Source: Mobula hypostoma
Taxonomy: Eukaryota
Reading direction: 5' to 3'
DNA: 64,000 nucleotides
NCBI RefSeq assembly: GCF_963921235.1
Contig: NC_086108.1
Location: forward strand, 15,872,001-15,936,000
Shown here piece after piece: positions 48,351-62,474 of this stretch. Every line of letters begins with the position of its first letter. The first letter of the stretch is position 1. The notes beneath the pieces were generated by a model. That model ran no database searches. It had not been told where the DNA came from and saw only the letters and a list, made by a program, of their open reading frames with translations. The translations under genes were made by a program, and so were the position numbers.

Positions 48351-49797
48351 CATAGAAACATAGAAACATAGAAAATAGGTGCAGGAGTAGGCCATTCGGC
48401 CCTTCGAGCCTGCACCGCCATTCAGTATGATCATGGCTGATCATCCAACTCAGAACCCTGTACCAGCCTTCCCTCCATACTCCCTGATCCCTTTAGCCAC
48501 AAGGGCCATATCTAACTCCCTCTTGGATATAGCCAATGAACTGGCCTCAACTGTTTCCTGTGGCAGAGAATTCCACTTTCTCTGTGTGAAGAAGTTTTTC
48601 CTAATCTCGGTCCTAAAAGGCTTCCCCTTTATCCTCAAACTGTGACCCCTCGTTCTGGACTTCCCCAACATCGGGAACAATCTTCCTGCATCTAGCCTGT
48701 CCAATCCCTTTAGGATTTTATACATTTCAATCAGATCCCCCCTCAATCTTCTAAATTCCAACGAGTATAAGCCTAGTTCATCCAGTCTTTCATCATATGA
48801 AAGTCCTGCCATCCCAGGAATCAATCTGGTGAACCTTCTTTGTACTCCCTCTATGGCAAGAATGTCTTTCCTCAGATTAGGGAACCAAAACTGCACACAG
48901 TACTCCAGGTGTGGTCTCACCAAGGCCTTGTACAACTGCAGTAGTACCTCCCTGCTCCTGTACTCGAATCCTCTTGCTATCAATGCCAGCATACCATTTG
49001 CCTTTTTCACCGCCTGCTGTACCTGCATGCCCACTTTCAATGACTGGTGTATAATGACACCCAGGTCTCGTTGCACCTCCCCTTTTCCTAATCGGCCACC
49101 ATTCAGATAATAATCTGTTTTCCTATTTTTGCCACCAAAGTGGATAACTTCACATTTATCCACATTAAATTGCATCTGCCATGAATTTGCCCACTCACCC
49201 AACCTATCCAAGTCACCCTACGTCCTCTTAGCATCCTCCTCACAGCTAACACTGCTGCCCAGCTTTGTGTCATCCGCAAACTTGGAGATTTAATTCCCTC
49301 ATCCAAGTCATTAATATATATTGTAAACAACTGGGGTCCCAGCACTGAGCCTTGCGGTACCCCACTAGTCACTGCCTGCCATTCTGAAAAGGTCCCGTTT
49401 ACTCCCACTCTTTGCTTCCTGTCTGCCAACCAATTCTCTATCCACATCAATACCTTACCCCCAATACCGTGTGCTTTAAGTTTGCACACTACTCTCCTGT
49501 GTGGGACCTTGTCAAAAGCCTTTTGAAAATCCAAATATACCACATCCACTGGTTCTTCCCTATCCACTCTACTAGTTAGATCCTCAAAAAATTCTATGAG
49601 ATTCGTCAGAGATGATTTTCCTTTCACAAATCCATGCTGACTTTGTCCGATGATTTCACTGCTTTCCAAATGTGCTGTTATCACATCTTTGATAACTGAC
49701 TCTAGCAGTTTCCCCACCACCGACGTTAGGCTAACCAGTCTATAATTCCCTGGTTTCTCTCTCCCTCCTTTTTTAAAAAGTGGGGTTACATTAGCCC
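48351..49797 (-). mobile_element. Young 5'-truncated CR1
   Basis: ORFs 49103..49972 and 48450..49211 (frameshifted RT); CATAGAAA x3 tail. Confidence 0.95.
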
Positions 49798-50524
49798 CTC
49801 TACATCTCTCTCTACATCCACGACTGTGTGTCTTGGCACGGCTTAAATGCCATCTATAAGTTTGCTGATGACACATCTTCAGAAGTTGGCAGAATTTCAG
49901 ATGGTGACAAGAGGCCATTCTGGAGCAAGATATATCAGTTAGTTGGGTGGTGTCACTGCAACAACCTTGCATTCAACATCAGTAAGACCAAAGAACTGAT
50001 TGTGGGCTCTAGAAAGGTAAGATGAGAATAAACACACAACAATCCCCATAGACAGATCAGAAGTGGAAAGAGTGAGCAATTTCAAGTTTCTGGGTGTCAA
50101 TATCTCTGAGGATTTATCCTGAGCCCAACACATCAATGCAGCTATACAGAAGGCCCAACAATGACTTTATTTTGTTAGGAGTTTTGTTTATTTTATTATT
50201 TACAGGTTGAGTGCATCGCGAGCTAAGCCGGCATTTATTGCCCATCCCCAGTTGCCCTTGAGAAGGTTTGAGGAGATTTGGAATGTCACTTAAGACACTC
50301 GCAAATTTCTACGGATGTTCTGACTGACTGCATCTCTGTCTGATATGGGGAGAGATGGACTGCTACTCAGTGTCGACTTAAGCTGCAGAGAGTTGTAAAC
50401 TCAGTCAGCTCCATCATGGGTACTAGCTTCCATAATATCCAGGACATCTTGAAGGACCAATGCCTCAAAAAGGTGGCATCCATCATTAAGGACTCCCATG
50501 ATCTAGGTCATGCTCTCTTCTCAA

Positions 50525-51247
50525 TGTAGCCTCCTGGTAAGCCTCAGGCTCACTCAGCTCACTTTCGTTCAGAGGGAGCAGCCTTCAGCCCGCCAAACTG
50601 GGTAATCAAGTTTGTGTAGATGCTGTGTGATGTACCCCACCCCGCCAAATAAGACAATACACCATATGTGATTAAATGATTACACTTTATAGATCTTACT
50701 GGAACTATGTAATTAATAGAGATACAATATAAAAGGAAAGGAAAAGGCACCAAACTTATTAAAGTTCAACCACTTTGTGCACAACCGTTGGAGCTCGATG
50801 AATGGAGTCTTCTTTCCATCATGCGATTTCCTTCGACCCCCTCGACCCGCCGCCTGGGACCAACCACAGTGGTCGACCAGAGCGCGTCCAGCACATCCTT
50901 CCTCTTTGGTTCTCCTCCCCAAAACCCTGGGCCTTGGACTCCCGCTTGGAGTCTGTTCCGTCACCCAGCTTACAGCATCGCATCTCCTCTCTCTGTCCCC
51001 ATCGCGCCTTCTGCCCCAAAGCCCGCAAAAACAATAGCTTACAGATACACAAGAAAGAATAACATCTATCCCAATTGGTTAGCAAATTAATACAATTCCC
51101 TTATCAGTAATATAACCCAAACAAGTTGCTAGAGAGAGAACCACTGTCTCAGCAGTTAACATCACCGAGAAGTCATTTTATTTTTAACATAACAAAGAAG
51201 CCATTTTATTCACCTTAGCAGTATCATAAAAGAAGAAACCTCTTACA
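50525..51247 (-). repeat. Gypsy 3' LTR (723 bp, TG...CA)
   Basis: Direct repeat of 56670-57239 + 61315-61467; preceded on the minus strand by PPT TTTGGTGGGGGGAGAG (51248-51263). Confidence 0.93.
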
Positions 51248-51753
51248 CTCTCCCCCCACCAAATTTAGTCATGTCCTCATGACTTCTAAATAACTCACCA
51301 ACCCTTCCTGCAGACACAAAAATCCAATCCAGGTACAAACAGTGACATTGCTCCCCAAACAGTGGACCTTATGCCCTGTTCCTCAAGCGCTGCATAGGCT
51401 AACCTATCTGGGAGTTTCCTAATCCTCCGAGACATCCGTACCCCCTCACCTAAACCCTTCAGGCTCGGACACTACTGGGGATACTTCGGGTCTGCTTGCC
51501 AACTCCTCTCTCAATCTCTTACTCGTGCCCCCACTGCAACTCAGAGCCCCATGTCCCATGTCCGGGGCCCCGCTTCTTTTCCTTCAGGGTCCTGCTGTAA
51601 CACAGGCTGCCCACAGCTAGCCCTCTTCACTACCCCTGACTCAGTGGGAGAAGGGCCAAAAGTCTCTTCATCCAACAAGGGGAAGTTAGTGAAAGGCAGC
51701 ATGTACCACACATCCAGCACATTATCCTTCAAATCCGTATTCTTCCTCATTTC

Positions 51754-52188
51754 CTCGATCGGTAGCTGCTGTTTGATTTTCTCCAAACTGAAGCACTTAG
51801 CCTGGCTGCCTCTGCAGCCTCTCCAGCCTCCTGTGATCGAAATGTCAGCTTCTTCTCTGACTCCTCCAATCCTCACCCTAGTCTCAGCAGTTCTGACCCA
51901 CGCTTCATGTCCATCTCCATCTGGGATGCAATTACACCACCAGCTTCTTCCAATCTGTTCTGGATCGATGTCTTGAGTTTCTGCTGATCCTTTCGAAGGT
52001 TGGTCATTGTTTTGTCTCTGGATTAATTCATCAGTAAATGACCGCAGTTTCAGCTCGGAATTCCGTTTCCCCGTCTCCACTTTGACGAGCGTGAACTCCA
52101 ATGCTTCAATGGTTGTCCCAAAATTGCAGCACTCCGTCTCCAGCCTGCATTTCTGAGCATTCAGTTCAGTGGTGCAAATCTCCTCACT
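51754..52188 (-). pseudogene. Captured sarcomeric myosin heavy-chain rod fragments inside Gypsy pol
   Basis: Translates (two frameshifts, one stop) EEICTTELNAQKCRLETECCNFGTTIEALEFTLVKVETGKRNSELKLRSFTDEL../RDKTMTNLRKDQQKLKTSIQ/NRLEEAGGVIASQMEMDMKRGSELLRLG*GLEES/EKKLTFRSQEAGEAAEA../QAKCFSLEKIKQQL, matching recalled myosin-II tail motifs. Confidence 0.85.
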
Positions 52189-53230
52189 CAGGAGCTGCGT
52201 CTCTCTCCAGACTTGGCACTCGTCCAAAGAAAGTTTTACTTCGTTAATCCCTAGTCGCCCGGGATCCTTCACTCGCCTCGCTTCATAGTCTTCCAAGGCG
52301 AATCCCAATGCTAGGAGATTATCCAAATACACCAAAACTCCACACACCTCCACATCCCCCATGGTCTTCTCCATGCCCCGTGGGAAGGTTTCAGGGGCTC
52401 CGGATATGCCCTGTGGCATCTTTTCGGGCCAGAAGAATCGTAGGGGACCTATAACGGCCGTCTTCTTGTCAGCTTCACTCATCGGGATCTGGCAACATCC
52501 ACTCCTCAGATCCAGCACATTAAACCACGTTGCACCACTCAGACAGACCATCGCGTCTTCGGCCCTCAAGACCGTATACTGGTCATTGACCGTGCGCCTG
52601 TTCAGAGTCCTATAATCCACACACACGCTGCCTACGTCTTCCACAGCTGCAGGGGCCAGTCACTGCGACCTCTCTCTCACCGAGGTGTCTTCAGCGATCA
52701 ACTCCCCTCCCTCGTGGTATTCCGGAGCGTCCACTAAGAGGGTCTCACCCTCAGATACCTCCCCCAGGCCGTACCACGATCGGTTCTCGTTTAAATTTGG
52801 CACAGGCCCAATGCTGCTACACACGTCCTCACAAGCAGCTGGAAACACTGGGTGCACAGACAATGCCCCCAAAACAGCTCTCACCCACCTTCTCCTGGCA
52901 GGCCCCCATGCACCTCCTCACCAGCCCAGAATCGAAACGCTGCCCATCACACCAGGGTCCAGACACATCAGCATTAACGATTCACAACCCTCTGACACCC
53001 ACACATTGGCCTCCAAGAACTCCAGTTTCACTGACCAATAACCGTCGTCTGGATAATCACCGGCACAGGTACCCCAAATCTCCAGTGTCCTTAATGTTGT
53101 CAAGAGTAAATACTTCAAATACCGGTTGTAAAACGAACTGTACAGCAACTTGACTTGTGCCCTAGTGTCGAGGATGGCTTTAGCATAGCTTCCATCTATC
53201 CGTAACAATACCCGAGGGCGCGGTCCCGCT
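52189..53230 (-). pseudogene. Gypsy protease and RT remnants
   Basis: AILDTRAQV (aspartic protease); CVDYRTLN, LDLRSGCCQI, MPQGISGAP, YLDNLL (RT with degenerate YxDD). Confidence 0.9.
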
Positions 53231-53602
53231 AAGCCTTCAGGAATAGGGTCTTTTCCTTTCGGGAGTTCCTTGGTTCATTGCTGAGAACGTGCTTCGCCAG
53301 AGACCCCAAGCCATTCCCTCACTGGGCTTCCACTAAGTTTCCTGACACCTCTCTGATCATCTGAACAACTGAGGGAGGGGCTGATTCCCTTAAAAGATCC
53401 CCCTGGCACTGCAAGCAATTTAGCTGCCCCCCTATCCAGAGAAGCTTTTCCCCAATCTCCTGACACAGGTATGGAAAGCCCCTCAGGCACTGCATTTTAC
53501 TTCCAGTCAAACGAAATGCATTTTCCCCCGCTTTCAGATAACTGGCAGCTGTCACTATGGGGCAATTGACCCTGACAGTTCTAACACCGTCAACAGCCCG
53601 CC

Positions 53603-56193
53603 TAGGGCAAAAATCAAAAAGGGCCACTTTTCAGCATAATTGTATAAGGGCTAAGAGTGTTGTAAAAGCAAGCCTGAAGGCTTTGTGTGTCAATACAAGG
53701 AGCATTCATAACAAGGTAGATGAATTGAATGTGCGGATAGTTATTAATGAATATGATATAGTTGGGATCACAGAGACATGGCTTCAGGGTGACCAAGGAT
53801 GGGAGTTCAACGTTCAGGGATATTCAATATTCAGGAGGGATAGACATGAAAGAAAAGGAGGTGGGGTGGCATTGCTGGTTAGAGAGGAGATTAACGCAAT
53901 AGAAAGGAAGGACATTAGCCGGGAGGATGTGGAATCGGTATGGGTAGAGCTGCATAACACTAAGGGGCAGAAAACACTGGTGGGAGTTGTGTATGGGCCA
54001 CCTAACAGTAGCAGTGAGGTTGGGGATGGCATTAAACTGGAAATTAGAAATGCGTGCAATAAAGGAACAGCAATTATAATGGGTGACGTAAATCTACATA
54101 TAGATTGGGTGAACCAAATTGGTAAGGGTGCTGAGGAAGAGGATTTCTTGGAATGTATGCGGGATAGTTTTCTGAACCAACATTTTGAGGAACCAACTAG
54201 AGAGCAGGCTATTCTAGAATGGGTACTAAGCAATGAGGAAGGGTTAGTTAGCAATCTTGTCGTGCGAGGCCCCTTGGGTAAGAGTGACCATAATATGGTG
54301 GAATCCTTCATTAAGATGGAGAGTGATATAGTTAATTCAGAAACAAAGGTTCTGAACTTAAAGAAGGGTAACTTTGAAGGAATGAGACGTGAATTAGCTA
54401 AGATAGACTGGCAAATGATACTTAAAGGGTTGACGGTGGATATGCAATGTCAAGCATTTAAAGATCGCATGGATGAACTACAACAATTGTTCATCTCAGT
54501 TTGGCAAAAGAATAAACCAGGGAAGGTCTAGTGAGATGGAGGAACTGAGGGAAATACATGTTAGTACGGAAGTGGTGTTAGGTAAATTGAAGGGATTAGA
54601 GGCAGATAAATCCCCAGGGCTAGATGGTCTGCATCCCAGAGTGCTTAAGGAAGTAGCCTAAGAAATGGTGGATGCATTAGTGATAATTTTTCAAAACTCT
54701 TTAGATGCTGGACTAGTTCCTGAGGATTGGAGGATGGCTAATGTAACACCGCTTTTTAAAAAAGGAAGGAGAGAGAAACCGGGAAATTATAGACCGATTA
54801 GCCTAACGTCGGTGGTGGGGAAAATGCTAGAGTCAGTTATCAAAGATGTGATAACAGCACATTTGGAAAGCAGTGAAATCATCGGACAAAGTCAGCATGG
54901 ATTTGTGAAAGGAAAATCATGTCTGACGAATCTCATAGAATTTTTTGAGGATGTAACTAGTAGAGTGGATAGGGGAGAACCAGTGGATGTGGTATATTTG
55001 GATTTTCAAAAGGCTTTTGACAAGGTCCCACACAGGAGATTAGTGTGCAAACTTAAAGCACACGGTATTGGGGGTATGGTATTGATGTGGATAGAGAATT
55101 GGTTGGCAGCCAGGAAGCAAAGAGTGGGAATAAACGGGACCTTTTCAGAATGGCAGGCAGTGACTAGTGGGATACTGCAAGGCTCAGTGCTGGGACCCCA
55201 GTTGTTTACAATATATATTAATGACTTGGATGAGGAAATTAAATGCAGCATCTCCAAGTTTGCAAATGACACGAAGCTGATCGGCAGTGTTAGCTGTGAG
55301 GAGGATGCTAAGAGGATGCAGGGTGACTTGGATAGGTTGGGTGAGTGGGCAAATTCATGGCAGATGCAATTTAATGTAGCTAAATATGAGGTTATCCACT
55401 TTGGTGGCAAGAACAGGAAAACAGATTATTATCTGAATGGTGGCCGATTAGGAAAAGGGGAGGTGCAACGAGACCTGGGTGTCATTATACACCAGTCATT
55501 GAAAGTGGGCATGCAGGTACAGCAGGCGGTGAAAAAGGCGAACGGTATGCTGGCATTTATAGCGAGAGGATTCGAGTACAGGAGCAGGGAGGTACTACTG
55601 CAGTTGTACAAGGCCTTGGTGAGACCACACCTGGAGTATCGTGTGCAGTTTTGGTCCCCTAATCTGAGGAAAGACAGTCTTGCCATAGAGGGAGTACAAA
55701 GAAGGTTCACCAGATTGATTCCTGGGATGGCAGGACTTTCATATGATGAAAGATTGGATCAACTAGGCTTATACTCTCTGGAATTTAGAAGATTGATGGG
55801 GGGATCTTATTGAAACATATAAAATTCTAAAGGGATTGGACAGGCTAGATGTAGGAAGATTGTTCCCAATGTTGGGGAAGTCCAGAATGAGAGGTTACAG
55901 TTTGAGGATAAAGGGGAAGCCTTTTAGGACCAAGATGAGAAAAAACTTCTTCACACAGGGAGTGGTGAATCTGTGGAATTCTCTGCCACAGGAAACAGTT
56001 GAGGCCAGTTCATTGGCTATATTTAAGAGGGAGTTAGATATGACCCTTGTGGCTAAAGGGTTCAGGGGGTATGGAGAGAAGGCAGGTACAGGGTTCTGAG
56101 TTGGATGATCAGCCATGATCATACTGAATGGTGGTGCAGGTTCAAAGGGCTGAATGGCCTACTCCTGCACCTATTTTCTATGTTTCTATGTTT
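53603..56193 (+). mobile_element. Young CR1 (EN + RT, internal deletion near 54527) inserted in Gypsy gag
   Basis: ORFs 53557..54531 (GITETWL, SDHN) and 54665..55813 (RT, FAND); (TTTCTATG)n tail; gag resumes on both sides. Confidence 0.95.
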
Positions 56194-56620
56194 ACTCAAA
56201 CTTCCAACCTCCAACCAATCCCTGCCACTCTCACTCAACTGAGCACTGCCACTCATCCAACAACTGAGTGATCCATTCCACCCACGTCTCGTACACCTCC
56301 GCCCCTTTAAGGGTGGACATTATCCCATAAACCAGGTGGAGCCTGCCATAGCTGAAACATTTATTCACAGACACTACCTCTGAATCAGACCACTCTTTCC
56401 TCTCTCTCCTAACAGTATGGACAGCCCATTGATGCCTCAGTTGGGTCACCAATAGACACTGGCAGTCCCACCTCCAACTCGTCAGCGCTAGTCTGAACTC
56501 AAACAAAGACCTCCAGGGTACCAACAGCCACCCCACCCAACACGCATGCAGTAACAATCAGCAATCCCACCGAGGCACACCAGCTTTCCATCCCTGCAGC
56601 ATGCATAATTTAAAGAGGGC
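56194..56620 (-). pseudogene. Gypsy gag remnant (PNMA-like capsid), continuing at about 53300-53602
   Basis: YGRLHLVYGIMSTLKGAEVYETWVEWITQLLDEWQCS..RAVDGVRTVRVNCPIVTAASYLKAGENAF resembles PNMA/Gypsy gag. Confidence 0.7.
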
Positions 56621-56648
56621 GATCACACAGCTTCCTACAAAAATCCAT

Positions 56649-56666
56649 ATCCTGGACGAGCACCCA
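56649..56666 (-). promoter_or_regulatory. Primer binding site, tRNA-Pro type
   Basis: TGGGTGCTCGTCCAGGAT, 16/18 match to TGGGGGCTCGTCCGGGAT, 3 nt after the 5' LTR end. Confidence 0.8.
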
Positions 56667-58070
56667 CAATATAGCCCCCTGGTAAGCCTCAGGCTCACTA
56701 AGCACACTTTCGTCCAGAGGAAGCAGCCTTCAGCCCACCAAACTGGGTAATCAAGTTTGTGTAGATGTTGTGTGATGTACCCCACCCCGCCAAATAACAG
56801 ACAATACACCATATGTGATTAAATGATTACACTTTATGGATCTAACTGGAACTATGTAATTAATAGAGATACAATATAAAAGGAAAGTAAAAGGCGCCAA
56901 ACTTATCAAAGTTCAACCACTTCATGTACAACCGTTGGAGCTCGATGAACGGGGTCTTCTTTCCACCATTCGATCCCCTCCAACCCCCTCGACCCGCTGC
57001 CTGGGACCAACCATGGTGGTCGACCAGAGCGCGTCCAGCACGTTCTTTTTCTTCGGTTCTCCTCCCCAAAACCCTGGGCCTCGGACTCCTGCTCGGGGTC
57101 CATTCTGTCGCCCAGCTTACAGCATCGCATCTCCTCTCTCTGTCCCCTTCGTGCCTTCTGCCCCAAAGCCCACGAAAACAGTAGCTTACAGATACACAAG
57201 AAAGAATAACATCCATCCCAATTGGTTAACAAATGAATAGACCATAAGACCATAAGACAAAGGAGTAGAAGTTGGCCATTTGGCCCATTGAGTCTGCTCC
57301 ACCATTTTATCATGAGCTGATCCATTCTCCCATTTAGTCCCACTCCCACACCTTCTCACCATAACCTTTGATGCCCTGGCTACGCAGATACCTATCAATC
57401 TCTGCCTTAAATACACCCAATGACTTGGCCTCCACTGCCGCCCGTGGCAACAAATTCCGTAGATTCACCACCCTCTGGCTAAAAAAATTTCTTCGCATCT
57501 CTGTTCTGAGAGGACGCCCTTCAATCCTTAAGTCATGCCCTCTCATACTAGACTCCCTCATCGTGTGAGACAACTTTGCCACATCCACTCTGTCCATGCC
57601 TTCAGACATTCAGAATGTTTCTATGAGGTCCCCCCTCATTCTTCTAAACCCCAAGGTATACAGTCCAAGAGCAGACAAACATTTCTCATAAGTTAACCCT
57701 CCCATTCCCGGAATCATCCTAGTGAATCTTTTCTGTACCCTCTCCGACGTCAGCACATCCTTTCTTAAATAAGGAGACCAAAACTGCTCACAGTACTCCA
57801 AATGAGGTCTGACCAGCGCCTTATAGAGCCTCAACATCACATCCCTGCTCCTATACTCTATTCCTCTAGAAATGAATGCCAACATTGCATTCACCTTCTT
57901 CACCACTGACTCAGCCTGGAGATTAACCTTAAGGGTATCCTGCACGAGGACTCCCAAGTCCCGTTGCATCTCAGAACTTTGAATTCTCTCCTCATTTAAA
58001 TAATAGTCTGCCCATTTATTTCTTCTGCCAAAGTGCATAACCATACACTTTCCAACATTGTATTTCATTT

Positions 58071-58606
58071 AACATACAGCAAAGTTGCTGGTGAACACAG
58101 CAGGCCAGGCAGCATCTCTAGGAAGAAGTACAGTCGACGTTTCAGGCCGAGACCCTTCGTCAGGACTAACTGAAGGAAGAGCTAGTAAGAGAGGCACATT
58201 CCAAGAAAGGATATATGGCTGTGATAGCGAGTCTGAGTTAAAATGTGGTTGAAAAGTTGCAGAGCCGAAGAAATTACAGATGGGGAGCAGTGAGAGATGG
58301 TTTCACTGAACTCCCATTGAAGAGAAGATTTAAACTTCTTCAGTGTAGGCATCACCAGAAGAGGCTCCACAGTAGTGAATTTAAAAACGCAAACACGAGG
58401 AATTCTGCAGATGCTGGAAATTCAAGCAACACACATCAAGGTTGCTGGTGAACGCAGCAGCTCTTCCTTCAGTTAGTCCTGACAAAGGGTCTCGGCCTGA
58501 AATGTTGACCGCAGCTCTTCCTAGAGATGCTGCCTGGCCTGCTGCGTTCACCAGCAACTTTGATGTGTGTTACTTGAATTTCCAGCATCTGCAGAATTCC
58601 TCATGT
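58071..58606. mobile_element. Penelope pLTR-derived insert with inverted repeats
   Basis: 13-bp flanking duplication TTGTATTTCATTT (58058-58070 and 58607-58619); 58071-58183 is inverted relative to 58459-58570. Confidence 0.85.
58132..58167 (-). ncRNA. Minimal type I hammerhead ribozyme motif
   Basis: AGUC-CUGACGA-AGGgucucggCCU-GAAA-CG-UC-GACU: complete core, stem I AGUC/GACU, palindromic ACGU stem III. Confidence 0.75.
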
Positions 58607-59676
58607 TTGTATTTCATTTGCCACTTCTTTGTCCATTCTTCCATTCTATCGAAGTCTCTCTGTAGGCTCTCCGTTTCCTCAACACTACCGGCCCCTCCAC
58701 CTATCTTCGTATCATCAGCAAACTTAGCCACAAAGCCATCTATTCCATAATCCAAATCATTGATGTACAACGTAAAAAGAAGTGGCCCCAACACAGACCC
58801 CTGTGGAGCACCTCTGGTAACCGGCAGCCAACCAGAATAGGATCCCTTTATTCCCACATTGTGTTTCCTGCCAATCAGCCAACGCCCTATCCACATACGT
58901 AACTTTCCTGTAATTCCATGGGCTCTTATCTTGCTAAGTCGCCCCATGTGTGGCACCTTGTCAAAGGCCTTCTGAAAATCCAAATATACAACATCCACTT
59001 CATCTCCCTTGTCTAGCCTACTTGTAATTTCCTCAAAAAATTGTAATAGGTTTGTCAGGCAGGATTTTCCTTTAAGGAAACCATGCTGAGTTCTGCCTAT
59101 CTTGTCATATGCCTCCAGGTACTCTGTAACCTCATCCTTGACAATCGACACCAACAACTTCCCAACTACCAGTGTCAAGCTAACAGGTCTATAATTTCCT
59201 TTTTGCTTCCTTGCCCCCTTCTTAAATAGCGGAGTGACATTTGCAATCTTCCAGTCTTCTGGAACCATGCCAGAATCATTGACTTTTGAAAGATCATCGC
59301 TAATGCCTCCGCAATCTCCACAGCTACTTCCTTCAGAACACGAGGGTGCATTCCATCTGGTCCGGGAGATTTATCTACCTTTAGACTATTCAGCTTCCTG
59401 AGTACTTTCTCTGTTGTAATTGTGACTGGGCACACTTCTCTTCCCTGCCACCCTTGAGTGTCCGGTATACTGCTGATGTCTTCCTCAGTGAAGACTGATG
59501 CAAAATACTCGTTCAGTTCCTCCGCCATCTCCTTATCTCCCATTACAATTTCTCCAGCATCATTTTCTATCGGTCCTATATCCACTCTCACCTGTCTTTT
59601 ACTCTTTATATATTTGAAAAAGCTTTTAGTATCCTCTTTGATATTATTTGCTAGCTTCCTTTCATAGTTCATCTTT

Positions 59677-61262
59677 TGCAGATAAATCCCCAGGGCCAGA
59701 TGGTCTGCATCCCAGAGTGCTTAAGGAAGTGGCCCAAGAAATAGTGGATGCATTAGTGATAATTTTTCAAAACTCGTTAGATTCTGGACTAGTTCCTGAG
59801 GATTGGAGGGTGGCTAATGTAACCCCACTTTTTAAAAAAGGAGGGAGAGAGAAACCGGGGAATTATAGGCCGGTTAGCCTAACGTCGGTGGTGGGGAAAC
59901 TGCTGGAGTCAGTTATCAAGGATGTGATAACAGCACATTTGGAAAGCGGTGAAATGATCGGACAAAGTCAGCATGGATTTGTGAAAGGAAAATCATGTCT
60001 GACGAATCTCATAGAATTTTTTGAGGATGTAACTAGTAGAGTGGATAGGGGAGAACCAGTGGATGTGGTATATTTGGATTTTCAAAAGGCTTTTGACAAG
60101 GTCCCACATAGGAGATTAGTGTGCAAACTTAAAGCACACGGTATTGGGGGTAAGGTATTGGTGTGGGTGGAGAATTGGTTAGCAGACAGGAAGCAAAGAG
60201 TGGGAATAAACGGGACCTTTTCAGAATGGCAGGCGGTGACTAGTGGGGTACCGCAAGGCTCAGTGCTGGGCCCCCAGTTGTTTACAATATATATTAATGA
60301 CTTGGATGAGGGAATTAAATGCAGCATCTCCAAGTTTGCGGATGACACGAAGCTGGGTGGCAGTGTTAGCAGTGAGGAGGATGCTAAGAGGATGCAGGGT
60401 GACTTGGATAGGTTGGGTGAGTGGGCAAACTCATGGCAGATGCAATTTAATGTGGATAAATGTGAAGTTATCCACTTTGGTGGCAAAAATAGGAAAACAG
60501 ATTATTATCTGAATGGTGGCCGATTAGGAAAAGGGGAGGTGCAACGAGACCTGGGTGTCATTATACACCAGTCATTGAAAGTGGGCATGCAGGTACAGCA
60601 GGCGGTGAAAAAGGCGAACGGTATGCTGGCATTTATAGCGAGAGGATTCGAGTACAGGAGCAGGGAGGTACTACTGCAGTTGTACAAGGCCTTGGTGAGA
60701 CCACACCTGGAGTATTGTGTGCAGTTTTGGTCCCCTAATCTGAGGAAAGACATCTTTGCCATAGAGGGAGTACAAAGAAGGTTCACCAGATTGATTCCTG
60801 GGATGGCAGGTCTTTCATATGAAGAAAGACTGGATGAACTGGGCTTGTACTCGTTGGAATTTAGAAGATTGAGGGGGGATCTGATTGAAACGTATAAGAT
60901 CCTAAAGGGATTGGACAGGCTGAATGCAGGAAGATTGTTCCCGATGTTGGGGAGGTCTAGAACGAGGGGTCACAGTTTGAGGATAGAGGGGAAGCCTTTT
61001 AGGACCGAGGTTAGGAAAAACTTCTTCACACAGAGAGTGGTGAATCTGTGGAATTCTCTGCCACAGCAAACTGTTGAGGCCAGTTCATTAGCTATGTTTA
61101 AAAGGAAGTTAGATATGGCCCTTGTGGCTACAGGGGTCAGGGGGTATGGAGGGAAGGCTGGGTTCTGAGTTGGATGATCAGCCATGATCATAATAAATGG
61201 CGGTGCAGGCTCGAAGGGCCGAATGGCCTACTCCTGCACCTATTTTCTATGTTTCTATGTTT
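59677..61262 (+). mobile_element. Young 5'-truncated CR1 with intact RT frame
   Basis: ORF 59648..61168 (DKSPGPDG..KFADD..WNSLP), (TTTCTATG)n tail; splits the minus-strand CR1. Confidence 0.95.
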
Positions 61263-62474
61263 TCCCTCTTAATGACCTTCTTAGTTTCTTACGATGATAA
61301 GAGATAATTCAAGAGAATACAATTATCAGTAATATAACCCAAACAAGCTGCTAGAGAGAGAACCAGTCTCAGCAGTTAACATCACAGAGAAGCCATTTTA
61401 TTTTTAACATAACAAAGAAGCCATTTTATTCACCTTAGCAGTAACATAAAAGAAGAAACCCCTTACAACAATGTTACCATCAGCAAGGAGGTACAGAAGC
61501 CTGAAGGCACACATACTCAATGATTCAGAAACAGCTTCTTCCCCTCTGCCACCAGATTTCAAAGTTTTAAAGTTTCAAAGAACATTTATTATCAAAGAAT
61601 GGATTACTTATACACCCTTCAATTTTGTTTGCTTACAGGTAGCCATGAAGCAAGAAACCTAAAAGAACCCAATTTTTAAAAAAGACCAACACCTGATGTG
61701 CAAGAGGAAGGAAAACAAAAACTCAGATCATGCTATCTGATCACAAATTTGAATGGACATTGAACCCATCAGCACCACCTCACTGCTTTTTTATTTTTAT
61801 TTTTGCACCACTTATTTAATTAACTGTAATTAATATATACTTACTGTAATTTATTATTTGATTTTTTTTCTCTGTTGTTTTGTATTGCATTGTACTGCTG
61901 CCGCAAAGGCAACAAATTTCACGACTTATGCCTGTGATATTAAACCTGAGTCTGATTCTGCTTTGCTTTTGGGTCAAGCCTCTACATTTCCTGACATGGG
62001 GGGGTGAACATAAGACCTTATGGAGCACCAATGTTTGGAATAATCGGGCAGAGTTATTGCTGCCTGTCCTTTCTGACTGTGGTCTTTTGGTCAGGTAGTA
62101 AGTGATCCAGATTCAGAGGGAGGCATTAACTCCCAGTGTCTGGAGAATGGTGATGTGTTTGCTTGAAATTAGAGTATTGAAGGCAGAGCTGTAGTCAATA
62201 AACAATAATCTAATGAGGATATCTTTACTATCCAGTTGCTCCAGAGATGAGTGTAGGGCCAAGGAGATGGTCTCTATCTTAGGCTTGTTTTGACGGTAGG
62301 CAAATTTCAGTGGATAGAAGGCGAGAGTTAATATGTGCCATGGCCTCCCCCTCAAGGCACTCCATGATGCTAGATGTCAGGGCCACTGAGTGGTGGTCAT
62401 TAAATCACGTTATCTTGTTACAACTTTTCTTTCCTGTGGTTTTACATCCATAGGCATCCGTTAGTCTCCTGAGA

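What the first reader, a model, noticed from the sequence alone, without database searches (positions are those of the whole stretch)
51754..52188. Gypsy LTR element carries myosin heavy-chain rod sequence in place of RNase H and integrase
Seen: after the RT end (LSLDECQVW) pol has no RNase H or integrase motifs. About 435 bp of coiled-coil coding sequence follows, then the normal pol tail (MSRRIRKLPDRLAY near 51395-51440), PPT and LTR. Read across two frames it gives ELNAQKCRLETEC..IEALEFTLVKVETGKRNSELKLRSFTDEL, RLEEAGGVIASQMEMDMKRGSELLRLG*GLEES and EKKLTFRSQEAGEAAEA..AKCFSLEKIKQQL. Known (recalled from sarcomeric MYH rods): [75 protein letters not shown] and [32 protein letters not shown], in the same order. 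Inference: retrovirus-style transduction of a host myosin mRNA into a non-autonomous LTR family with intact cis signals, so it could have been spread in trans. I know of no described case like this.
Basis: partly seen in the sequence, partly recalled or inferred. Interest (0 to 1): 0.88.

Follow-up and report, generated by a model that had tools for sequence, protein, structure and literature searches.

The report
Ray retrotransposon family carrying myosin fragment
This is a dead copy of a crippled gypsy-type jumping gene that long ago swallowed an intron-free piece of a muscle myosin gene and then spread that piece to hundreds of places in ray genomes, a known kind of event at an unusually large scale.

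Summary
On the minus strand, a truncated Ty3/gypsy reverse transcriptase (window 52626-52213) runs into about 460 bp of sarcomeric myosin heavy-chain rod sequence (52197-~51740). A short tail, a polypurine tract and a 726-bp LTR follow. It is a family. The 561-bp stretch spanning the RT-myosin junction, the myosin segment and the start of the tail gave 868 first-look candidates in the same genome. All 39 other scored copies were 87-92% identical.

The myosin part crosses host exon borders without introns. It consists of three colinear rod pieces, roughly residues 925-1005, 1149-1183 and 1393-1430.

A longer relative in the same genome keeps the RNase H end and an unbroken rod stretch (903-1184). 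The capture therefore first replaced only the integrase. The window's subfamily arose later by two further deletions.

Related ORFs are annotated in Mobula and in two stingray genera, some mislabelled as myosin. The donor paralogue is unresolved, at 42-61% protein identity to the host's own myosins. I found no sign of selection on the myosin part.

The mechanism is already described (LTR-mediated retroposition; ERV gene capture). The copy number and persistence stand out. This scan had already found the same family on another piece of this genome (e1-7791871).

The parts
61323..61467 (-). 5' LTR, first 145 bp. It is cut off from the rest of the LTR by a nested insertion.
   Evidence: 95.2% identical to 51101-51247 of the 3' LTR. 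It starts TGTAAG like the 3' LTR.
57240..61322 (-). Nested insertion of about 4.1 kb that splits the 5' LTR. It looks LINE-like and is not part of the element.
   Evidence: It is a gap in the LTR-LTR homology. ORFs at 57334-58068 resemble, by eye, the C-terminal part of the other LINE's RT ORF. ORF 57610-58068 has no Pfam hit.
56667..57239 (-). 5' LTR, remaining 573 bp.
   Evidence: 91.3% identical to 50522-51092.
56651..56666 (-). Putative primer-binding site. It begins with TGG just after the LTR end.
   Evidence: Read from the sequence only. It was not matched to a tRNA.
56200..56650 (-). 5' internal region, upstream of and reaching the start of the gag-like (PNMA-type) ORF of relative L058. 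It is decayed.
   Evidence: DNA homology of 80-82% to L058, covering only window 56202-56368 and 56383-56506. The second block ends about 20 bp inside L058's PNMA-hit ORF (Pfam E 1.2e-14). The window ORF itself has no Pfam hit.
53605..56199 (+). Nested non-LTR (LINE) element inside gag. It is not part of the element.
   Evidence: Exo_endo_phos E 6e-10 and RVT_1 E 7e-31 on its ORFs. Family homology stops at 53604.
53323..53604 (-). Gag-like region, second part.
   Evidence: Homologous in 29 of 29 fetched copies where covered, and to L058's PNMA-hit ORF.
52771..53322 (-). Protease-like region.
   Evidence: tblastn of autonomous relative P0121 residues 1-191: 36% identity, E 1e-23.
52213..52626 (-). 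Reverse transcriptase, truncated just after the ...KxSLDxCQ motif. The thumb is missing.
   Evidence: Pfam RVT_1 E 5.4e-7. P0121 residues 406-544 align at 60% identity, E 2e-44, and P0121's RVT_1 domain runs 397-557. A sister copy hits the Ty3 RT structure at E 2e-12.
51957..52197 (-). Myosin rod piece A, about residues 925-1005 of a 1940-aa fast myosin. It has one frameshift near 52014.
   Evidence: It crosses the host exon border at residue 978 without an intron.
51858..51956 (-). Myosin rod piece B, about residues 1149-1183. It has an in-frame stop at 51873-51875.
   Evidence: A sister copy is 60% identical over 35 residues.
51740..51857 (-). Myosin rod piece C, about residues 1393-1430. 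It has a frameshift near 51803.
   Evidence: The start coincides with a host exon border near residue 1393.
51261..51739 (-). Non-myosin tail, shared by all variants. It includes a pol-C-terminus-like motif at about 51395-51448.
   Evidence: It is shared in 9 of 11 aligned ORFs. The best local alignment lands on the C-terminal RRSxRxRKxPxRL motif of two autonomous pols, and 5 and 8 of 300 shuffles reach that score. BLASTP is not significant.
51248..51260 (-). Polypurine tract.
   Evidence: A purine run directly upstream of the LTR start.
50522..51247 (-). 3' LTR, 726 bp, TG...CA.
   Evidence: About 7.9% different from the 5' LTR overall.

Best explanation
The window holds an old, dead copy of a non-autonomous Ty3/gypsy LTR retrotransposon. 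Two LINE insertions have interrupted it.

The family descends from one event. A spliced sarcomeric myosin heavy-chain mRNA fragment was copied into a gypsy element's genome during reverse transcription. It took the place of the integrase and kept pol sequence, PPT and LTRs on both sides. Template switching between co-packaged RNAs is the inferred mechanism.

Lacking integrase, the chimera could only move with proteins supplied by autonomous relatives. It did so many times, giving hundreds to about a thousand copies.

During this spread, further internal deletions produced subfamilies. The window's subfamily lost the RT thumb, RNase H and the first ~22 captured myosin residues in one deletion. 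It lost rod residues ~1005-1149 in another.

The myosin piece is most likely a passenger without function.

Shown: the anatomy, the myosin origin, the absence of introns, the copy number, the shared junctions, the longer variant, and related ORFs in other rays. Inferred: the template-switch mechanism, mobilisation in trans, the single origin, and the order of the deletions.
For: Anatomy:
- LTR pair, PPT, PR and truncated RT are present.

Myosin origin:
-.
- Pfam Myosin_tail_1 scores E 6.4e-10 on the longer relative.
- That relative aligns gap-free over 190 residues at 44-45% identity, E ~4e-35.

No introns:
- All 10 host sarcomeric loci listed split the query at residue ~978-980.
- The element copies match straight across that point.
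- L058 runs unbroken over residues 903-1184, where the host genes have at least four exon borders.

Family:
- 868 first-look candidates; 40 were scored, and the 39 non-self copies are 87-92% identical, nearly all over the full 561 bp.
- All 29 fetched copies are homologous from the gag-like region to the 3' LTR.
- 8 of 29 keep one open frame through RT end, myosin and tail.

Integrase replacement:
- L058 aligns to autonomous pol P0121 up to residue 780, the end of RNase H. Myosin then follows.
- P0121 has Integrase_H2C2 at 919-974 and rve at 989-1085.

Possible helpers:
- The RNase H segment has 1641 first-look candidates.
- About 34 of the scored ones are 76-79% identical.

Single origin:
- The piece B to piece C junction is shared by 9 of 11 aligned ORFs. 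The myosin-to-tail junction is also shared by 9 of 11.
- These ORFs come from this genome, Mobula hypostoma, M. birostris, Hypanus sabinus and Hemitrygon akajei.

Spread in other organisms:
- 4260 and 3269 contig pieces of two further coded organisms lay on the stretch.
Against: - No autonomous partner was fetched, so shared LTR, PBS and PPT signals with a helper are not shown. The 76-79% class is only presumed autonomous.
- Microsimilarity at the pol-myosin and myosin-tail fusion points could not be examined. I held neither donor cDNA nor autonomous element DNA.
- The tail's pol origin is weak: BLASTP is not significant, and support comes only from a shuffle test at about 2-3%.
- The captured sequence is no closer to the host's own myosins (48-61% per exon) than to fish, bird or lungfish myosins (44-65%). 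Capture in this lineage is therefore not proven, and horizontal arrival is not excluded.
- The target-site duplication of the window copy is only 3 of 4 bases.
- Pfam does not call Myosin_tail_1 on the window copy. On L058 the score is 38.0 bits against a cut-off of 38.1.
Confidence: 0.85

Rival explanations
1. The myosin-derived coiled coil is not a passenger. It is an in-frame C-terminal domain of the gag-PR-RT' polyprotein, and selection kept it because it helps the non-autonomous lineage. It might do so by multimerising, or by binding or interfering with the helper's particles.
For: - The segment is in frame with pol in 8 of 29 fetched copies.
- It is in frame in a 729-aa Hypanus ORF that runs from gag to the tail.
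- The lineage persisted in two ray families.
- Many deletion variants all keep piece C and the tail.
Against: - Transversions are flat over codon positions in the myosin part: 105, 107 and 98, p 0.81.
- The mild third-position excess is in transitions only, and the counts are not independent.
- The lower divergence of the myosin part is explained by how the copies were chosen, as best matches to that very stretch.
- 8 open copies of 29 is about what neutral decay at about 5% per copy would leave. This is my estimate, not a computed test.
- Nearly all of the longest matches to the 729-aa ORF in this genome contain 1-7 stops.
Confidence: 0.08
2. The capture happened in another lineage, and the chimeric family, or its ancestor, reached rays by horizontal transfer.
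For: The captured rod is equally distant from the host's sarcomeric myosins and from those of teleosts, birds and a lungfish. No closer host paralogue was seen among those examined.
Against: - The family is present in two families of Myliobatiformes. Vertical descent from an old capture plus fast decay explains this more simply.
- Three more divergent host sarcomeric-type loci seen could not be fetched and compared.
- The word-based protein search returned no copies outside rays. That is weak evidence.
Confidence: 0.06
3. The likeness to myosin is chance or convergence between coiled coils, and the segment is native to the element.
For: Pieces 2 and 3 of the window copy are individually not significant, at E 0.19 and 0.16. 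Pfam finds no Myosin_tail_1 in the window copy. Coiled coils do give spurious matches, as the weak Pfam hits show.
Against: - The matches are colinear and specific to sarcomeric myosin.
- All of the best 120 of 879 proteins carry myosin motor and tail Pfam domains, and those named are muscle myosin heavy chains.
- A 190-residue gap-free alignment scores E ~4e-35.
- The host's non-muscle-type myosin genes give nothing.
- The autonomous relative has an integrase at that place.
Confidence: 0.01

Closest known systems
LTR-mediated retrocopies of animals (Tan et al. 2016, Genome Res 26:1663, PMC5131818; I read the abstract and passages)
   Same: An intron-free host mRNA piece sits inside a discontinuous LTR retrotransposon. 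The chimera behaves as a non-autonomous element and can go through further rounds of retroposition. [quoted passage not shown]
   Different: Their cases are young and have one or a few copies. This one is old (LTRs 7.9% apart, copies 8-13% apart). It has hundreds to about a thousand copies, many deletion subfamilies, and relatives in several ray genera. The microsimilarity at the fusion points that they report could not be checked here.
Host mRNA capture by crocodilian endogenous retroviruses: nectin3 replacing env, and KIT-ligand (Chong et al. 2014, PMC4299795; passages read)
   Same: A vertebrate endogenous LTR element carries a captured, intron-free host coding sequence at the expense of one of its own genes. 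Copying within the genome followed, and the capture is shared between related species.
   Different: - Those are retroviruses (ERV4-type), not Ty3/gypsy elements.
- They hold whole ORFs with reported purifying selection. Here there is only a patchwork of rod fragments with no sign of constraint.
- They report six insertions, against hundreds here.
Maize Bs1 (as described in passages of Tan et al. 2016; original papers not read)
   Same: [quoted passage not shown]
   Different: It is a plant element with one to five copies, three donor genes and a claimed functional hybrid protein.
Oncogene transduction by acutely transforming retroviruses (recalled textbook knowledge, no call)
   Same: A spliced host sequence replaces part of pol or env, and the result is a replication-defective genome that needs a helper.
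   Different: Here there is no evidence of any gain for the element or effect on the host. The element is endogenous and inherited in the germ line.

Membership tests
Ty3/gypsy (Metaviridae-type) LTR retrotransposon | Two long terminal repeats in direct orientation flank the internal region. | tested here: met
   50522-51247 matches 56667-57239 plus 61323-61467, at 91.3% and 95.2% identity.
Ty3/gypsy (Metaviridae-type) LTR retrotransposon | The RT is of gypsy type and the pol order is PR-RT-RNase H-IN. | tested here: inconclusive
   The RT is closest to the Ty3 RT structure, E 2e-12. It is 60% identical to P0121, whose Pfam order is RVT_1, RT_RNaseH, Integrase_H2C2, rve. The window element itself has only PR and a truncated RT, so it is a deletion derivative rather than a complete member.
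Ty3/gypsy (Metaviridae-type) LTR retrotransposon | PBS after the 5' LTR, PPT before the 3' LTR, and a target-site duplication. | tested here: inconclusive
   The PPT is clear. The PBS is only read from the sequence. The target-site duplication matches in 3 of 4 bases.
LTR-mediated retrocopy / transduced host gene | Host-derived sequence is flanked on both sides by retrotransposon sequence. | tested here: met
   The RT lies upstream. Downstream are the shared tail, the PPT and the LTR.
LTR-mediated retrocopy / transduced host gene | The host-derived part lacks the parental introns. | tested here: met
   Host loci split at residue ~978, while the element copies are continuous there. L058 is continuous over 903-1184.
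LTR-mediated retrocopy / transduced host gene | Microsimilarity between the mRNA and the element at the fusion points. | not testable with these tools
   This needs the donor cDNA and the autonomous element's DNA. Only an internal junction (piece B to C) was seen to fall in a motif, ELEE, that occurs at both rod positions.
LTR-mediated retrocopy / transduced host gene | [quoted passage not shown] | tested here: met
   39 of 39 scored non-self copies match the 561-bp stretch that spans the RT-myosin junction through to the start of the tail, nearly all over its full length. The junctions are shared across species ORFs.
Sarcomeric (class II) myosin heavy chain | Myosin_tail_1 rod at or above the Pfam cut-off, plus a motor domain. 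| tested here: not met
   The window copy has no Myosin_tail_1 hit. L058 scores 38.0 bits against a cut-off of 38.1. No motor domain is present. It is a fragment derived from such a gene, not a myosin gene.
MYH16-type donor (claimed in earlier scan note e1-7791871) | The captured segment groups with MYH16 orthologues rather than with other sarcomeric paralogues. | not tested
   - No MYH16 sequence was on hand.
- The label appears only as NCBI's name for one Hypanus ORF.
- The best full-length representative here is named myosin-7-like, from a lungfish.
- The top named hits are fast skeletal types.
- Identities are too even to decide.

The most novel reading that the evidence does not exclude
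The myosin rod fragment may be a working part rather than baggage. Fused in frame to the end of a gag-protease-RT-remnant polyprotein, its coiled coil could let this parasite-of-a-parasite multimerise with, ride on, or blunt its helper's particles. That would explain why every deletion variant across two ray families kept piece C and the tail while shedding enzyme domains.
Probability: 0.08. Interest if true: 0.75.

Novelty: new member of a known kind. Interest (0 to 1): 0.45.

Why it matters
It is a large, old example in a vertebrate of host-gene capture by a gypsy-type LTR element, followed by helper-dependent amplification. The intermediate forms are still present in the genome. They lay out the order of events: integrase replacement first, then stepwise internal deletions.

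It also has a practical side. Copies are annotated in public ray genomes as 'myosin heavy chain ...-like' or 'putative uncharacterized protein MYH16'. Others are labelled as isoforms of unrelated genes (TMEM192, SDHAF3). Gene counts and myosin phylogenies in batoids should mask this family.

Tried and rejected
- **DNA-level search for the donor.** blastn of the segment against about 145 kb of host myosin genes gave nothing (the tblastx part did not run). Three non-muscle-type myosin genes gave no protein hit either.
- **Pfam on window pieces.** No myosin family was found.
- **Stretch 51541-51810.** It gave no PDB hit.
- **Tail against autonomous pol by BLASTP.** Not significant.
- **Autonomous relatives in the DNA I held.** There were none.
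- **Codon-position test for constraint.** It showed no transversion signal. The lower divergence of the myosin part is an ascertainment effect, because the copies were picked as best matches to that stretch.
- **Intact long ORFs in this genome.** Nearly all of the longest matches to the 729-aa Hypanus ORF carry 1-7 stops.
- **Expression.** No RNA holder was listed. Runs X13 and X17 are only guessed to be RNA, and one is flagged as probably DNA, so their contigs say nothing on transcription.
- **Depth dip at 52181-52278.** The dip appears in all four laid runs. I read it as the window-type RT-myosin junction being a minority form, but contig depth is a poor measure.
- **Donor = MYH16.** I could not test this.
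- **Literature.** Three full-text searches listed 20, 15 and 15 of the 93, 75 and 51 papers holding the terms. No listed title or abstract start describes a myosin-carrying LTR family in rays. The unlisted papers were not looked at. Repbase or Dfam entries could not be checked.

Full report
**What is in the window**

The element lies on the minus strand. It is bounded by a 726-bp LTR at 50522-51247 and by a 5' LTR that a roughly 4.1-kb nested insertion splits into 56667-57239 and 61323-61467. The two LTRs are 91.3% identical over 573 bp and 95.2% over 147 bp, about 7.9% different overall. The LTR starts TGTAAG directly after a purine run at 51248-51260. It ends ...CTACA, and a TGG-initial stretch follows the 5' LTR. 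The flanks match in 3 of 4 bases as a possible target-site duplication.

A second nested element occupies about 53605-56199. It is a LINE with an endonuclease (Exo_endo_phos, E 6e-10) and an RT (RVT_1, E 7e-31).

What remains of the internal region is about 2.8 kb:
- a gag-like part, homologous to a PNMA-type ORF of a relative;
- a protease-like part at 53322-52771;
- an RT at 52626-52213, which stops after the ...KLSLDECQ motif. This corresponds to residue 544 of the autonomous relative P0121, whose RVT_1 domain runs to residue 557 and whose RNase H and integrase follow.

**The myosin segment**

From about 52197 the reading turns into myosin rod.
- Piece 1 of the window copy hits human Myosin-7 residues 925-982 at E 4.6e-5.
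- Pieces 2 and 3 are weak on their own (E 0.19 and 0.16). Their best or only PDB hits are Myosin-7 at 1133-1172 and the 1361-1425 fragment, in the same order.
- The window copy is broken by two frameshifts (near 52014 and 51803) and a stop at 51873-51875.
- Contigs from other runs differ in length at both frameshift places, so these breaks are private to this copy.

In 8 of 29 fetched sister copies the whole stretch is one open frame continuous with the RT. One such ORF gives:
- E 2e-12 to the Ty3 RT, and 4.5e-8 and 2.9e-7 to myosin rods;
- 879 long proteins at E<=1e-3 for its 155-residue myosin part. All of the best 120 carry myosin motor and tail Pfam domains, and those named by their source are skeletal-muscle myosin heavy chains, best E 4.8e-9.

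Against a 1940-aa fast myosin the three pieces map to about 932-1005, 1149-1183 (60% identity) and 1384/1393-1424 (66%). The second junction lies in an ELEE motif that occurs at both rod positions.

**No introns**

The host's sarcomeric myosin genes form a cluster of eight at C68:15.31-15.90 Mb, plus loci on C2 and C40. All of them split the query at residue ~978-980. The element copies match straight across that point. Piece C starts at or near a host exon border (~1393). The other piece ends lie inside exons.

**It is a family**

- The 561-bp stretch spanning the RT-myosin junction, the myosin segment and the start of the tail has 868 first-look candidates in this 3.48-Gb genome.
- Forty were scored. 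The 39 non-self ones are 87-92% identical, nearly all over the full length.
- All 29 fetched copies are homologous from the gag-like part through the 3' LTR.
- Protein-level searches gave 715-1398 first-look candidates for rod parts.
- These counts are floors or rough guides, not copy numbers.

**A longer relative shows the history**

Locus L058, from another contig, is 80-86% identical in DNA to the window element in the 5' region, PR, RT, myosin and tail. It differs in two ways:
- It keeps the RNase H end, aligning with P0121 residues 620-780 up to the ...ALSR motif.
- It then runs into myosin at residue ~903 and continues unbroken to ~1184. From there it makes the same jump to ~1393 and has the same tail.

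Its rod ORFs hit Pfam Myosin_tail_1 at E 6.4e-10 (38.0 bits, cut-off 38.1) and at E 3.3e-4. They align gap-free over 190 residues to full-length myosins at 44-45% identity, E ~4e-35.

So the capture replaced the integrase. The window's subfamily is a derivative with two further deletions: RT residue 544 to rod residue ~925, and rod residues ~1005 to ~1149. The rod part that the window subfamily lacks is present in at least 150 scored places, at 58-82% protein identity to L058. Longer forms are therefore themselves numerous and diverse.

In all four laid runs, depth dips over the window-type RT-myosin junction. This fits that junction being a minority form, but contig depth is a weak measure.

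**Helpers**

- The RNase H segment of L058 has four copies at 86-89% identity and two at 83%.
- About 34 scored copies are at 76-79%, among 1641 first-look candidates.
- These are the obvious candidates for autonomous relatives. I could not fetch them.
- P0121, an unnamed 1490-aa pol from a public assembly, is the nearest complete pol found. It is 62% identical over the RNase H end.

**The tail**

All variants share the sequence after piece C. Its best local alignment to P0121 and to a second pol falls on their C-terminal RRSxRxRKxPxRL motif. Only 5 and 8 of 300 shuffles reach that score, but BLASTP sees nothing. A pol-C-terminal origin is likely but not secure.

**Distribution**

Public proteins with the element's myosin-plus-tail come from four species:
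- Mobula hypostoma: named 'myosin heavy chain, skeletal muscle-like', 'striated muscle-like', or uncharacterized;
- Mobula birostris;
- Hypanus sabinus: named 'putative uncharacterized protein MYH16', 'TMEM192 isoform X1', 'SDHAF3 isoform X1';
- Hemitrygon akajei.

One Mobula hypostoma contig has the same length as contig C1 of this assembly, so the window is probably from that species. These species belong to two families of Myliobatiformes.

The 729-aa Hypanus ORF runs from gag through PR, the RT remnant, an RNase H remnant and myosin to the tail. It carries yet another deletion pattern. The piece B to C junction is shared by 9 of 11 aligned ORFs, and the myosin-to-tail junction by 9 of 11. 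This argues for one capture before these families split. How long ago that was I can only recall roughly, as of the order of 100 million years. It was not checked.

**Donor**

- The captured rod is 48-61% identical per exon to the host's own sarcomeric genes that I fetched. It is 44-65% identical to fish, bird and lungfish myosins.
- The best full-length representative is named myosin-7-like, from a lungfish.
- Non-muscle-type host genes give no hit.
- The paralogue cannot be named from this. The MYH16 label in the earlier scan note and in one NCBI name was not tested.

**Function**

I see no sign of constraint on the myosin part:
- Transversions are even over codon positions: 105, 107 and 98.
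- The lower divergence there comes from how the copies were chosen.
- Nearly all of the longest matches to the long ORF carry stops.

A passenger role is the default.

**Comparison with the literature**

- The mechanism and kind are described. Tan et al. 2016 report LTR-mediated retrocopies in fly, mosquito, zebrafish, chicken and mammals. These have microsimilarity at the switch points and some secondary retroposition. The authors cite maize Bs1, with one to five copies (abstract and passages).
- Chong et al. 2014 report crocodilian ERVs that captured nectin3, in place of env, and KIT-ligand mRNAs (passages).
- Abrusán et al. 2013 survey host fragments in repeat libraries. The paper has no occurrence of 'myosin'.
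- I found no listed paper on a myosin-carrying LTR family in rays. Most matching papers were not inspected, and repeat databases were not available.
My results agree with it on the family, the absence of introns, the ray distribution and the mislabelling. They add the integrase-replacement intermediate and the deletion series. The MYH16 assignment stays open.

**Verdict**

This is a real and well-supported feature. It is a new member of a known kind, notable for its copy number, its age and the preserved intermediates.

Noticed in passing
window 53605-56199 (+), 57240-61322 (-) and 48450-49972 (-): There are several LINE copies of one type, with an APE-type endonuclease plus an RT. Two are nested inside the LTR element, one in the gag-like part and one in the 5' LTR. 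They give a relative order of events: the LTR element inserted first and the LINEs later.
   Followed up: partly
public proteins P0128, P0129, P0123, P0126, P0130: Ray genome annotations name ORFs of this element family as myosin heavy chain-like or MYH16, or as isoforms of TMEM192 and SDHAF3. P0128 (729 aa) shows only weak RVT_1 and PNMA hits in Pfam and no TMEM192 domain. P0129 was not scanned against Pfam.
   Followed up: partly
G000 C18:48745523-48746731, C50:30689110-30689772, C184:304888-305403, C157:172388-172903: These are long contiguous Myosin_tail_1 matches (up to 400 profile positions in one stretch, with stops). They look like processed myosin pseudogenes or other intron-free rod copies, and are distinct from the family studied here. 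They were not examined.
   Followed up: no
L058 (G000 C1:175391000-176996999 region fetched as 175391000-175396999), 5' ORF: The gag-like ORF of this element lineage matches the PNMA family at E 1.2e-14. PNMA is a family of gypsy-gag-derived host genes.
   Followed up: no
host loci C36:112722934-112724614 and C68:14663723-14666748: Two divergent sarcomeric-type myosin loci split the large rod exon at about residue 1163, where the fast-type cluster genes have none. This points to old paralogues with a different intron pattern. They are candidates for the donor question.
   Followed up: no
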